Part shown: positions 2,690 to 3,580 of the stretch, piece after piece
Position numbering within the stretch: position 1 is the stretch's first letter
How the letters are laid out: the number at the start of each line of letters is the position of its first letter
NCBI GenBank assembly: GCA_036000105.1
Contig: DASYGE010000012.1
Span: 460,436-524,435 of the forward strand
DNA from: Gammaproteobacteria bacterium
GTDB taxonomy: Bacteria; Pseudomonadota; Gammaproteobacteria; Natronospirales; REEB76
Direction: 5' to 3'
Length of the DNA stretch: 64,000 nucleotides
Notes under the pieces: model-generated
Database searches by the model: none
What the model saw: only the letters and a program-made list of their open reading frames with translations
What the model was told of the DNA's origin: nothing
Translations under genes and position numbers: made by a program

Positions 2690-3580
2690 TCAGGGCGGCG
2701 GAGGATTCCCGTTGCGGCACATAGTCGGCAGGTACTTCGGATCCACAGCATTGTTGCTGGCAGGCCCGCAGTACCAGGTCTTGCCTCCATCGGCGGTCCA
2801 CAACTCCACCGCCCTACCGGAGATGAACCGATTCACGCCGGTCTGTTTCATGGTGGCGATCACGCCGAAGGAACCGTCAGCCGATGTGGAGGTGCTGATG
2901 GTCTCCACATACTTGCCCACTGGTCCGGATTTTGGATACAGAGACGAGATGTCCGTCGGCCAGGTCTTGTTCTTCTCATAGAACTCAGACACAGGCACTT
3001 CGGCGCTCCCGGCGAGCTGGATGCCTTCCGACATCTGCGAACGTGCGATGTAATCCTGGTAAGCCGGGATGGCGATGGCCGCGAGGATGCCCATGAGCGG
3101 GATGATTAGGATATATGTCCAGGCACCCACGATGACCCAGCCAGTGTTGGGCGGCGGTTGCGGGCCAAAGCGGTTATCGCCACTCGTGCCAGGCCAGAAC
3201 AGGATTCCCAGCGAAAGCGCCAGTTCCGCGAGTACGAGCGGTATGTTTATCAAAGTCAAAACCACAGAACCGTGGGCGAATATCCCGATAACGGCAGTCA
3301 ATATTACGATCGGAAAAATCAGCAACCACCATCCACTCAAATTCATATCGTGGAGTCGCCGTATCATGAACGTCACGCCCACTACTAGGAAGAATATATA
3401 AGTCACTGCCAGCAGCACGCCGGCGAGCAAGCGCAGCTTGAAGGCAAAGAGCGCCCCTCCTACGAGCCACACGGGGAGCATCAGCAGCATCAGTCCGACG
3501 GCATAGGCCAGATAACGCAGCCGGCCGATGCGGGAGCTGACGTCGAAGAATTTGATCTCGGTAGCAGGTTCCCCGTCCAT
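2690..3580 (-). CDS. DUF805 membrane domain fused to a type IV pilin-like globular domain
   Basis: N-terminal half has DUF805 hallmarks ([30 protein letters not shown]). C-terminal half has a pilin alpha-1 helix ([23 protein letters not shown]) and a C-terminal disulfide loop ([20 protein letters not shown]). No G/FTLIE prepilin motif. Confidence 0.7.
   Translation of the reverse strand: [296 protein letters not shown]

What the first reader, a model, noticed from the sequence alone, without database searches (positions are those of the whole stretch)
2690..3580. DUF805 membrane domain fused to a type IV pilin domain that lacks a prepilin leader
One ORF combines two parts.

- The N-terminal ~150 aa are DUF805-type: four TM helices with [20 protein letters not shown] and [10 protein letters not shown].
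- The C-terminal ~150 aa are an unmistakable type IVa pilin body. It has the alpha-1 helix [23 protein letters not shown] and the C-terminal disulfide-bounded D-region [20 protein letters not shown].

The canonical G|F-T-L-I-E cleavage and methylation motif with Glu5 is absent. It is replaced by a continuation of the membrane domain ([16 protein letters not shown]). The protein therefore cannot be a PilD substrate or polymerise like a normal pilin.

This would display a pilin headgroup permanently anchored in the inner membrane. No pil, gsp or tad genes lie nearby.
Basis: partly seen in the sequence, partly recalled or inferred. Interest (0 to 1): 0.55.

Follow-up and report, generated by a model that had tools for sequence, protein, structure and literature searches.

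The report
Membrane-tethered pilin fused to DUF805
A real, conserved gene joins a membrane protein of unknown function (DUF805) to a complete pilus-subunit head that has lost the signals needed to be cut and built into a pilus, so the head must stay tethered to the inner membrane; such 'tethered pilins' appear to be undescribed and their role is unknown.

Summary
Window 2690-3580 (minus strand) is one 296-aa ORF with a full-length DUF805 domain (aa 11-140) and a full-length type IVa pilin domain (aa 179-289). There is no N_methyl hit and no Gly-1/Phe1/Glu5.

- **Structure:** AlphaFold2 (pLDDT 92) gives four DUF805 helices, a Pro-rich linker, then one 45-residue helix running into a gonococcal-PilE-like head.
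- **Not an artefact:** about 90 independent protein clusters share the architecture. Orthologues sit in the same syntenic slot. dN/dS is 0.05-0.36 in all three regions.
- **Junction:** homology to the lineage's own pilA starts abruptly at Gly14.
- **Wider pattern:** the same leaderless pilin module is also fused to M48 peptidase, RDD, DUF2628, TM2 and zinc-ribbon anchors. A larger "headless" DUF805 family keeps only the pilin alpha1 segment.
- **Hypervariability:** flanks are 76-96% identical in DNA to the closest genome, but the ORF only 42-69%, and allele relationships disagree with the flanks.
- **Context:** no pil, gsp or tad gene lies in the 64 kb.

Function is inferred only. Most likely it is a non-polymerisable pilin mimic that links DUF805 to the cell's pilin pool or pilus machinery. 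I rate it a new variant of a known kind.

The parts
2690..3580 (-). Whole gene: 296-aa DUF805-pilin fusion (the stop codon is 2690-2692)
   Evidence: ORF list. Pfam finds two full-length domains. About 90 homologous clusters share the architecture. dN/dS is 0.15-0.30.
3587..3592 (-). Shine-Dalgarno-like AAGGGA, 6 nt upstream of the ATG
   Evidence: Read directly from the sequence.
3161..3550 (-). DUF805 domain (aa 11-140), holding the invariant motifs R17-G19-R20-R22-Y23, R74-R75-L76-H77-D78 and G131/N136/G139
   Evidence: Pfam PF05656, E 3e-15, full profile. The invariant columns come from alignment A1.
3197..3523 (-). Four predicted transmembrane helices of the DUF805 part (aa 20-46, 50-78, 83-101, 106-128)
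   Evidence: AlphaFold2 model, pLDDT 92.4. K+R residues cluster at the N-terminus and in the loop at aa 74-83.
3143..3196 (-). Conserved Pro-rich linker [18 protein letters not shown] (aa 129-146), inferred to be cytoplasmic
   Evidence: P142, P143 and N145 are invariant. The C-terminus of E. coli YhaH (DUF805) was treated as cytoplasmic, and its GFP fusion localised in cells, in PMC3225971.
3092..3142 (-). N-terminal half of TM5 (aa 147-163). It occupies the place of pilin residues -4 to 13 but is not pilin-like. T155 sits at the Glu5 position, V151 at Phe1 and I150 at Gly-1.
   Evidence: Register from the phmmer alignment to PilE. DNA similarity to the resident pilA of a relative starts only at the Gly14 codon.
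2693..3091 (-). Pilin module: alpha1 from the Gly14 equivalent (G164), through P172 (Pro22), to the complete alpha/beta head (aa 164-296)
   Evidence: Pfam PF00114. Foldseek top hit is 2hi2 PilE, with 156 alignment columns against a 158-residue target and rmsd 3.0. The 28 aa [28 protein letters not shown] are identical to ordinary pilins P0088, P0097 and P0115.
2717..2770 (-). D-region bounded by C271 and C288 (putative disulfide)
   Evidence: C271 is invariant and C288 nearly invariant in the family. Both are shared with ordinary pilins in alignment A2.
2637..2663 (-). Terminator-like hairpin (10-bp stem, 7 G-C pairs) 27 nt after the stop codon. It suggests a monocistronic unit.
   Evidence: Consensus scan. 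This is a pattern match only.

Best explanation
**Anatomy (well supported).** The gene encodes a five-helix inner-membrane protein.
- An expanded DUF805 domain has four TM helices, with its conserved Arg/His/Asp motifs and its C-terminal G-x-N-R-F-G-P-x-P-P-P-N linker facing the cytoplasm.
- A fifth helix follows. It crosses the membrane from inside to outside and continues without a break into the alpha1-C helix and the complete type IVa pilin head. The head carries the conserved Cys pair of the D-region and lies in the periplasm.
- The pilin part is a copy of the lineage's own pilA from about Gly14 onward. The leader peptide, Gly-1, Phe1 and Glu5 are gone.

**Consequences (inferred from established pilin biology).** The protein cannot be cleaved or methylated by PilD. 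It cannot dock through Glu5. With four extra TM helices attached it cannot be pulled out of the membrane into a filament. It is a permanently tethered pilin monomer.

**Function (inferred, weakly).** The retained pilin surfaces are alpha1 residues 14-30 and the head. They would let the protein bind what membrane-resident pilin monomers bind: other pilins and/or the type IV pilus assembly or sensing machinery. That would couple the uncharacterised DUF805 module to the state of the pilin pool. The protein would act as a non-polymerisable pilin mimic (regulator, sensor or docking tag), not as a structural subunit.
For: - **Domains and register:**
- **Structure:** the AlphaFold2 model has pLDDT 92.4 and one continuous helix at aa 147-191. 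Foldseek aligns nearly the whole of full-length PilE, including alpha1-N.
- **Topology:**
  - K+R residues cluster at the N-terminus and the RRLHD loop.
  - The DUF805 C-terminus is cytoplasmic in E. coli YhaH, according to the design and read-out of the GFP screen in PMC3225971.
  - The Cys pair is conserved.
- **A real, selected gene:**
  - About 90 clusters share the architecture.
  - Fourteen loci are syntenic.
  - dN/dS is 0.05-0.36 in the DUF805, alpha1 and head regions.
- **Derived from pilA:**
  - Heads are 55-67% identical to ordinary prepilins of related metagenomic bacteria.
  - A 28-aa stretch is identical to them.
  - In a relative, DNA homology to the resident pilA begins at the Gly14 codon.
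  - A carrier genome has a canonical pilS-pilR-pilA locus.
- **The alpha1 segment matters by itself:** 87 headless DUF805 proteins conserve [14 protein letters not shown] as strongly as 93 headed ones.
- **Glu5 is always removed:** every other fusion partner (M48, RDD, DUF2628, TM2, zinc ribbon) also joins the pilin after Glu5 and at or before Gly14.
- **Pilin-like population behaviour:** alleles are hypervariable and incongruent within a conserved backbone.
Against: - No experiment or interaction data exist.
- No pil, gsp or tad gene is adjacent, here or in relatives.
- The deleted segment (residues 1-13, including Glu5) is the part of pilin that, to my knowledge, mediates PilS sensing and subunit docking. 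The mimic may therefore not be recognised by those partners.
- Between sister genomes the DUF805 part varies more than the head (48% against 70% aa identity). Matching of the head to the resident pilin does not explain this by itself.
- DUF805 has no known activity, so the 'output' of the proposed coupling is undefined.
- The short-class alleles raise an unresolved TM-parity problem.
Confidence: 0.4

Rival explanations
1. Exaptation unrelated to pili. The pilin alpha1-C/head is used simply as a sturdy periplasmic domain, for ligand binding or self-association. It would be grafted onto small membrane modules (DUF805, RDD, DUF2628, TM2, M48) that need a periplasmic part or need to oligomerise. 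It would have no dealings with the type IV pilus system.
For: - At least six unrelated N-terminal partners carry the same module.
- None of the inspected loci has pilus genes nearby.
- The residues most specific to pilus assembly (1-13) are deleted.
- One relative (P0132) has a Sec-type signal peptide and a head only.
Against: - Headless DUF805 proteins keep the pilin alpha1 14-30 sequence almost unchanged without any head. That points to selection on the pilin-specific helix itself.
- The heads remain 55-67% identical to functional pilins, with all pilin-conserved residues.
- Gene-specific hypervariability is not expected of a generic structural domain.
Confidence: 0.25
2. Conflict or defence module. 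The tethered periplasmic pilin head would be a decoy or sensor for agents that target pilins, such as pilus-specific phages arriving by retraction or pilin-binding toxins. The small membrane module (DUF805, RDD, TM2, M48) would be the effector or blocker, as in superinfection exclusion or abortive infection.
For: - The ORF alone is hypervariable within a conserved backbone. Deep alleles are incongruent with the flanks, and they even differ in TM number.
- One 'sensor' is swapped between many membrane modules.
- DUF805-like membrane proteins occur as phage morons (weak PHROG and BFVD hits).
Against: - No PADLOC hit for the four fusions tested with DUF805, M48, DUF2628 or TM2 partners; the RDD fusion P0127 gave one weak hit (PD-T4-6, E 0.0036, on its RDD part).
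- The gene sits in a stable housekeeping-type syntenic slot, with no defence or mobile genes beside it.
- Overall dN/dS is below 0.36, with no sign of positive selection at this resolution.
- No significant viral structural matches were found.
Confidence: 0.2
3. Cryptic processing. Some protease other than canonical PilD recognition cuts within or before TM5, for example after the conserved G152. This would release a short-stemmed pilin that is used in a filament or secreted.
For: A conserved G-A-W lies in the first turn of TM5 in headed members.
Against: - G152 lies at the +2 position in pilin register, not at -1.
- There is no basic leader and no Glu5.
- A product starting at A153 would have a stem three residues short.
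- Headless relatives lack the GAW motif.
- The N_methyl model finds nothing.
Confidence: 0.05
4. Assembly or frameshift artefact, or a decaying pseudogene that joins two separate genes.
For: None found. One relative (P0110) does look frameshifted after TM5.
Against: - The same in-frame junction is found in about 90 clusters from four independent data sources and in syntenic orthologues.
- The junction residues are invariant.
- Selection is purifying across the junction.
- No leader is encoded in any frame.
- The AlphaFold2 model is confident across the junction.
Confidence: 0.02

Closest known systems
Type IVa major pilins (PilA/PilE; Pfam PF00114), e.g. N. gonorrhoeae PilE (PDB 2hi2) and the ordinary prepilins of related bacteria (P0088, P0097, P0115)
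   Same: - The alpha1 helix from Gly14 and Pro22 onward.
- The alpha/beta head fold.
- The Cys-bounded D-region.
- 35% identity to PilE, and 50-62% identity to prepilins from related metagenomic bacteria.
   Different: - No class III signal peptide and no Gly-1/Phe1/Glu5.
- Residues 1-13 are replaced by unrelated TM sequence.
- The module is covalently attached to a 4-TM domain.
- It is not next to pilS/pilR or pilBCD. It is therefore predicted to be neither processed nor polymerised.
DUF805 family (COG3152; E. coli YhaH/YhaI inner-membrane proteins)
   Same: Full-length PF05656 match with the family's N-terminal R-x-G-R-x-R-Y, central RRLHD-x-x-x-SGWW and C-terminal G-x-N-R-F-G motifs.
   Different: - One extra TM helix is inserted in the third hydrophobic segment.
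- A Pro-rich extension follows, plus a fifth TM and a 130-aa periplasmic pilin head.
- DUF805 itself has no known function.
'Headless' DUF805 proteins of Burkholderiales and other Gammaproteobacteria (for example Roseateles, Massilia, Rhizobacter, Alcanivorax; L018, L020-L080)
   Same: The same DUF805 domain, the same P-x-P-x-N linker and the same pilin-derived [14 protein letters not shown] transmembrane helix.
   Different: They stop 10-30 residues after the helix and have no globular head. They are far more widespread and occur in cultured strains.
Other leaderless pilin fusions seen here: M48 peptidase-pilin, RDD-pilin, DUF2628-pilin, Zn-ribbon/TM2-pilin
   Same: The same pilin module is joined after Glu5 and at or before Gly14. 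It sits at the C-terminus of a small polytopic membrane protein.
   Different: The membrane partners are different. These fusions sit at other loci.
Geobacter PilA-N / PilA-C split pilin (from my own knowledge, not tested here)
   Same: A natural rearrangement that separates the pilin stem from the head, showing that the two halves can evolve as modules.
   Different: That case is a gene fission. The stem keeps its leader and Glu5 and still polymerises. Here the head keeps half the stem, loses the leader and is fused to another protein.
PilA-PilS intramembrane sensing in Pseudomonas (Kilmury and Burrows 2016; from my own knowledge)
   Same: A precedent for membrane-resident pilin acting as a signal through contacts between TM helices. 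A carrier genome has pilS-pilR-pilA.
   Different: That sensing depends on the extreme N-terminus of the pilin, including Glu5, which is absent here.

Membership tests
Type IV pilin / prepilin (PilD substrate) | Short basic leader peptide ending in Gly at position -1 | tested here: not met
   Position -1 is I150, preceded by ...PPPNTGWV (for the register, for the sequence). No G|FTLIE-type motif occurs in any frame of the window.
Type IV pilin / prepilin (PilD substrate) | N-methylatable Phe/Met1 and Glu5 (Pfam N_methyl PF07963) | tested here: not met
   V151 and T155 occupy these positions. There is no PF07963 hit at E <= 1. Ordinary pilins in the same search do carry PF07963.
Type IV pilin / prepilin (PilD substrate) | Hydrophobic alpha1-N stem continuous with amphipathic alpha1-C (Gly14, Pro22) | tested here: met
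   One continuous helix at aa 147-191. G164 and P172 are nearly invariant. However, only residues 14 onward are homologous to pilin.
Type IV pilin / prepilin (PilD substrate) | Globular alpha/beta pilin head (PF00114 fold) | tested here: met
   PF00114 at 58 bits, full length. Foldseek hit to 2hi2 with E 2e-8 and target TM-score 0.67.
Type IV pilin / prepilin (PilD substrate) | C-terminal disulfide-bounded D-region | tested here: inconclusive
   C271 and C288 are conserved. Whether the bond forms depends on a periplasmic location, which is inferred and not shown.
Type IV pilin / prepilin (PilD substrate) | Cleavage by prepilin peptidase and incorporation into a filament | not testable with these tools
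   Needs immunoblotting or pilus preparations. Sequence rules predict neither will occur.
DUF805 (PF05656) | Full-length profile match above the gathering score | tested here: met
   57 bits against a cut-off of 25.7, profile 1-111/111.
DUF805 (PF05656) | Family motifs R-x-G-R-x-R-Y, RRLHD...SGWW and G-x-N-R-F-G | tested here: met
   R17, G19, R20, R22, Y23, R74-D78, G131, N136 and G139 are invariant across 27 family members.
DUF805 (PF05656) | Inner-membrane protein with three hydrophobic segments and a cytoplasmic C-terminus (E. coli YhaH) | tested here: inconclusive
   The window protein has four helices. Sister alleles have three, with a helix-break-helix. The cytoplasmic C-terminus is taken from PMC3225971.
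Known anti-phage defence proteins (PADLOC-DB) | Match to any defence-system model | tested here: not met
   No hit for the window protein or for three of the four other fusions tested; the RDD fusion P0127 gave only a weak hit (PD-T4-6, E 0.0036).

The most novel reading that the evidence does not exclude
Tethered pilins would be a general, undescribed class. In it, a pilA-derived module (alpha1 from about Gly14 plus the head, always without the leader and Glu5) has been grafted repeatedly onto at least six unrelated small inner-membrane families: DUF805, RDD, DUF2628, TM2, M48 peptidase and zinc-ribbon anchors. At this locus it is kept as deeply divergent, exchangeable alleles. The module would act as a periplasmic pilin decoy or sensor, either guarding against pilus-targeting phages or toxins or forming a new regulatory layer of type IV pilus dynamics. 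This would also give the first functional handle on these orphan membrane families.
Probability: 0.15. Interest if true: 0.8.

Novelty: new variant of a known kind. Interest (0 to 1): 0.6.

Why it matters
**Why it is unusual.** Type IV pilins are defined by their class III signal peptide and by Glu5. A conserved, selected family keeps a complete pilin head and half the stem but has lost exactly those features, and is welded to a polytopic membrane protein. That shows the pilin fold has a second life as a non-filament, membrane-tethered module.

**What it could lead to.**
- It gives a concrete entry point to DUF805, for which full-text searches found no functional study. It may do the same for RDD, DUF2628 and TM2, which carry the same module.
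- It suggests testable links between these domains and pilus biology or phage defence.
- It identifies a cultured organism (Pleionea sediminis) and many Burkholderiales with the headless form in which to test them.

**Annotation.** Pipelines currently label these proteins 'PilA' or 'DUF805 domain-containing protein'. The first label would wrongly imply a pilus subunit.

Tried and rejected
- **Frameshift or assembly artefact: rejected.**
- **A hidden prepilin leader in another frame, or a second pilin gene in the window: none.**
- **Functional linkage through gene neighbourhood: uninformative.**
  - The conserved neighbours are a CBS histidine kinase, a Fer2/FAD/NAD reductase, an epimerase, DUF969/DUF979, SapC and LysE. 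They reflect shared ancestry of one lineage.
  - The zinc-ribbon variants (L009-L011), the M48 locus and the RDD locus have unrelated neighbours.
- **Recent gene conversion with the resident pilA: not supported.** In the one genome where both genes were available, the alpha1 coding region is only 77-83% identical, with many synonymous differences.
- **Defence-system assignment: no PADLOC hit for the window protein or three other fusions; one weak hit (E 0.0036) for the RDD fusion P0127**.
- **Viral counterparts: nothing significant**.
- **Literature: nothing on the fusion.** Full-text searches for DUF805 with pilin, for DUF805 alone, and for pilin with RDD, TM2 or DUF2628 found no description of the fusion and no functional study of DUF805.
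- **TM-parity problem of the short-class alleles: unresolved.** I tried a second AlphaFold2 run. The tool returns no coordinates, so a re-entrant hairpin cannot be told from a kinked single TM helix.
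Full report
**What is there**

Window 2690-3580 holds one ORF on the minus strand, 296 aa long.

- An AAGGGA Shine-Dalgarno-like box lies 6 nt upstream of the ATG (3587-3592).
- A 10-bp terminator-like hairpin (2637-2663) follows the stop codon. The gene therefore looks like its own transcription unit.
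- Pfam finds two full-length domains well above their curated cut-offs: DUF805 (aa 11-140) and Pilin PF00114 (aa 179-289). There is no N_methyl match.
- NCBIfam gives only weak partial hits to pilin equivalogs, over the alpha1 helix.

**Register of the pilin part**

phmmer against PDB sequences aligns aa 157-276 to residues 7-126 of gonococcal PilE.

- This fixes G164 = Gly14 and P172 = Pro22.
- It places T155, V151 and I150 at the positions of Glu5, Phe1 and Gly-1.
- The conserved G152 falls at +2, so there is no cryptic cleavage site in register.
- No prepilin-type motif exists in any frame of the 64 kb. The only pilin-like coding stretch in the window is this one.

**Structure**

AlphaFold2, run with a 103-sequence alignment, gives a confident model (mean pLDDT 92.4, pTM 0.72).

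- Helices are at 20-46, 50-78, 83-101 and 106-128. A short structured linker follows, and then a single 45-residue helix (147-191) leads into a beta-sheet head.
- Foldseek against the PDB returns full-length N. gonorrhoeae PilE as the best match. The alignment spans 156 columns against the 158-residue target, with rmsd 3.0 Å and 35% identity.
- Other type IVa pilins follow. Nothing in the PDB matches the DUF805 part.

**Topology (inferred)**

- Lys and Arg cluster at the N-terminus/start of TM1 and in the RRLHD loop. The other loops have few. The positive-inside rule therefore puts the N-terminus in the cytoplasm.
- With five helices, the head is then in the periplasm. That fits the conserved Cys271-Cys288 pair.
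- Independently, E. coli YhaH, a DUF805 protein (the JGI names equate the two), was part of a GFP screen restricted to proteins with cytoplasmic C-termini. Its fusion gave a visible localisation signal (PMC3225971).
- The DUF805 C-terminal motif therefore faces the cytoplasm. The helix that follows runs from inside to outside, as in a genuine prepilin.

**It is a real gene family**

- A search of 5.8 billion proteins found about 90 clusters with the same two Pfam domains over the full length (35-96% identity). They come from JGI, ENA, NCBI and Logan assemblies, almost all from uncultured Gammaproteobacteria.
- In a 27-member alignment the junction is the most conserved part. G131, N136, G139, P142, P143 and N145 are invariant, and W148 nearly so.
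- A scan of GTDB species genomes returned 17 loci with the full fusion.
- Fourteen of the 17 share the window's gene order: a Fer2/FAD/NAD reductase downstream, and epimerase-DUF969-DUF979 or DUF969-DUF979 divergently upstream.
- Nei-Gojobori dN/dS is 0.05-0.36 for the DUF805 region, for the TM5/alpha1 region and for the head.
- Together these results exclude a frameshift, a chimeric assembly or a pseudogene.

**Origin of the pilin part**

- Ordinary prepilins from related bacteria (P0088, P0097, P0115; N_methyl plus Pilin, about 165 aa) are 50-62% identical to the head. They share the 28-residue string [28 protein letters not shown] exactly.
- A 1.08-Mb contig carries both a fusion (P0060) and a canonical pilS-pilR-pilA locus.
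- On that contig, DNA similarity between the two genes starts abruptly at the Gly14 codon and is 77-83% over alpha1. Upstream there is none.
- The fusion is therefore an old duplicate of pilA truncated at about residue 13, not a recent conversion product.

**The wider pattern**

- The same leaderless module is fused to several other partners:
  - M48 peptidases (P0090, P0091, P0105 and others);
  - RDD proteins (P0127, P0144, P0241);
  - DUF2628 proteins (P0192, P0202, P0244);
  - a zinc-ribbon/TM2 protein (P0245);
  - a zinc-ribbon single-TM anchor (P0169);
  - zinc-ribbon-DUF805 (L009, L011).
- It also occurs behind plain signal anchors and behind one Sec-type signal peptide.
- In every case the junction lies after Glu5 and at or before Gly14.
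- Most of the other genome hits are 175-230-aa DUF805 proteins. They keep the linker and the pilin-derived helix ([14 protein letters not shown]..RA) but stop there.
- These headless forms occur in cultured Roseateles, Pelomonas, Rhizobacter, Massilia, Pseudoduganella, Undibacterium, Alcanivorax, Pleionea and others.
- The helix is as conserved in 87 headless sequences as in 93 headed ones.
- In a library of 1.84 billion 50%-identity representatives, the query has 8482 hits at E <= 1e-3. Only 16 reach E <= 1e-30, so the full headed fusion is a small family.

**Hypervariability**

- Against its closest genome relative (L001), the window is 76-96% identical in DNA on both flanks, including the intergenic regions.
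- Identity falls to 42-69% within the ORF, dropping just inside its start and recovering just past its stop. The one exception is an 89% island over the alpha1 coding segment.
- Neighbouring proteins are mostly 85-99% identical between the two genomes (DUF969 is 75%), with dS 0.43-0.96. The fusion is 60% identical, with dS about 1.4.
- Identity matrices are incongruent.
  - The flanks make the window and L001 sisters, and likewise L004 and L005.
  - Yet the fusion proteins of each pair are only 60% identical, while L001 and L002 share 79%.
  - L004 carries a four-helix allele and L005 a three-segment allele.
- Deep alleles are thus exchanged at one fixed chromosomal slot, as is familiar for pilin genes.

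**An unresolved point**

- Short-class alleles (about 271 aa) have a single 22-residue helix-break-helix (82-89 and 91-103 in P0060). The window protein has two full helices at that place.
- That changes the TM count from 4+1 to 3+1.
- Both classes are alleles of one locus and both keep the Cys pair. The simplest reading is therefore that the short segment is re-entrant, and that the long class extended it into a hairpin of two full helices.

**Function**

- Nothing is known about DUF805. No paper in the searchable library mentions the fusion.
- The four fusions tested with DUF805, M48, DUF2628 or TM2 partners have no PADLOC match. The RDD fusion P0127 gave one weak hit (PD-T4-6, E 0.0036) over its RDD part. 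No fusion has a significant viral structural match.
- No pil, gsp or tad gene occurs in the window.
- My preferred reading rests on three observations:
  - the strict retention of pilin-specific sequence, even in headless forms;
  - the systematic removal of the processing and assembly determinants;
  - the pilin-like allele dynamics.
- On that reading the protein is a non-polymerisable pilin mimic. It would engage the membrane pilin pool or the pilus machine and so couple DUF805 to it.
- This is inference. I give the anatomy about 0.9 and the functional reading about 0.3-0.4.
- The rivals cannot be excluded with sequence data alone. The main ones are a pilus-independent periplasmic domain and a decoy or defence role. 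The decoy role explains the hypervariability and the partner swapping, but it lacks any defence-island context.

**Verdict**

The protein fails the defining tests for a prepilin and should not be annotated as PilA. It is a full member of DUF805. It is best described as a new variant of a known kind, a tethered pilin, and as part of a broader fusion pattern that seems to be unreported.

Noticed in passing
L018, L020-L080 (for example L050 9929-10489 Pseudoduganella sp. R-43; L031 Roseateles aquatilis; L076 Alcanivorax): A widespread 'headless' family of 175-230 aa. It has DUF805, the P-x-P-x-N linker and a C-terminal TM helix that copies pilin alpha1 residues 14-30 ([14 protein letters not shown]..RA), then stops. 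The helix is as conserved as in the headed forms.
   Followed up: partly
P0090/P0091/P0105 (M48), P0127/P0144/P0241 (RDD), P0192/P0202/P0244 (DUF2628), P0245 (Zn-ribbon+TM2), P0169 (Zn-ribbon), P0132 (Sec signal peptide plus head): The same leaderless pilin module is fused to at least five other membrane partners. The junction is always after Glu5 and at or before Gly14. One version appears to be a soluble periplasmic head.
   Followed up: partly
window 2659-3540 compared with L001: DNA identity to the closest genome drops from 76-96% on the flanks to 42-69% inside the ORF only, with an 89% island at 3010-3096. Allele relationships are incongruent with the flanks.
   Followed up: yes
P0060 / L083 8001-8816, and L005-L007, compared with the window: Alleles at the same syntenic slot differ in the number of hydrophobic segments in the DUF805 part (three against four). 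This gives a TM-parity puzzle. A re-entrant third segment would resolve it, but this was not verified.
   Followed up: partly
L083 1344-1775: A 143-aa protein with a plain N-terminal signal anchor and a PF00114 pilin head but no prepilin leader. It lies beside LysE in the region syntenic with the window. The window has no counterpart.
   Followed up: partly
L022 10557-16342; L024 10539-15879 and about 10 further loci: Headless DUF805 genes in diverse Beta- and Gammaproteobacteria often sit next to a gene cluster. It holds a MoxR-type AAA_3 ATPase, DUF58/vWA, DUF4350 and a 729-aa protein with no Pfam hit. In some loci it also holds RDD and SpoIIM-like genes.
   Followed up: partly
window 6423-7511 (minus strand): A 362-aa protein with no Pfam match that is extremely conserved: 98.6% identical to L001 with dN/dS 0.015, and 91-95% identical in more distant relatives. 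It lies next to a SapC-family gene.
   Followed up: no
L060 9830-11195; also L057 and L078: Tandem or paired DUF805 paralogues in Massilia, Telluria and Zemynaea. One has the pilin-like helix and the other has an unrelated C-terminal helix.
   Followed up: no
P0110 (245 aa): A relative whose sequence is normal up to TM5 and then reads like an out-of-frame pilin part. It is a probable frameshifted or degraded copy.
   Followed up: no
window 22912-24888 (plus strand): A full-length Peptidase_M2 (angiotensin-converting-enzyme family) homologue, E 3e-195. It lies beside a POT-family peptide transporter and an OPT oligopeptide transporter.
   Followed up: no
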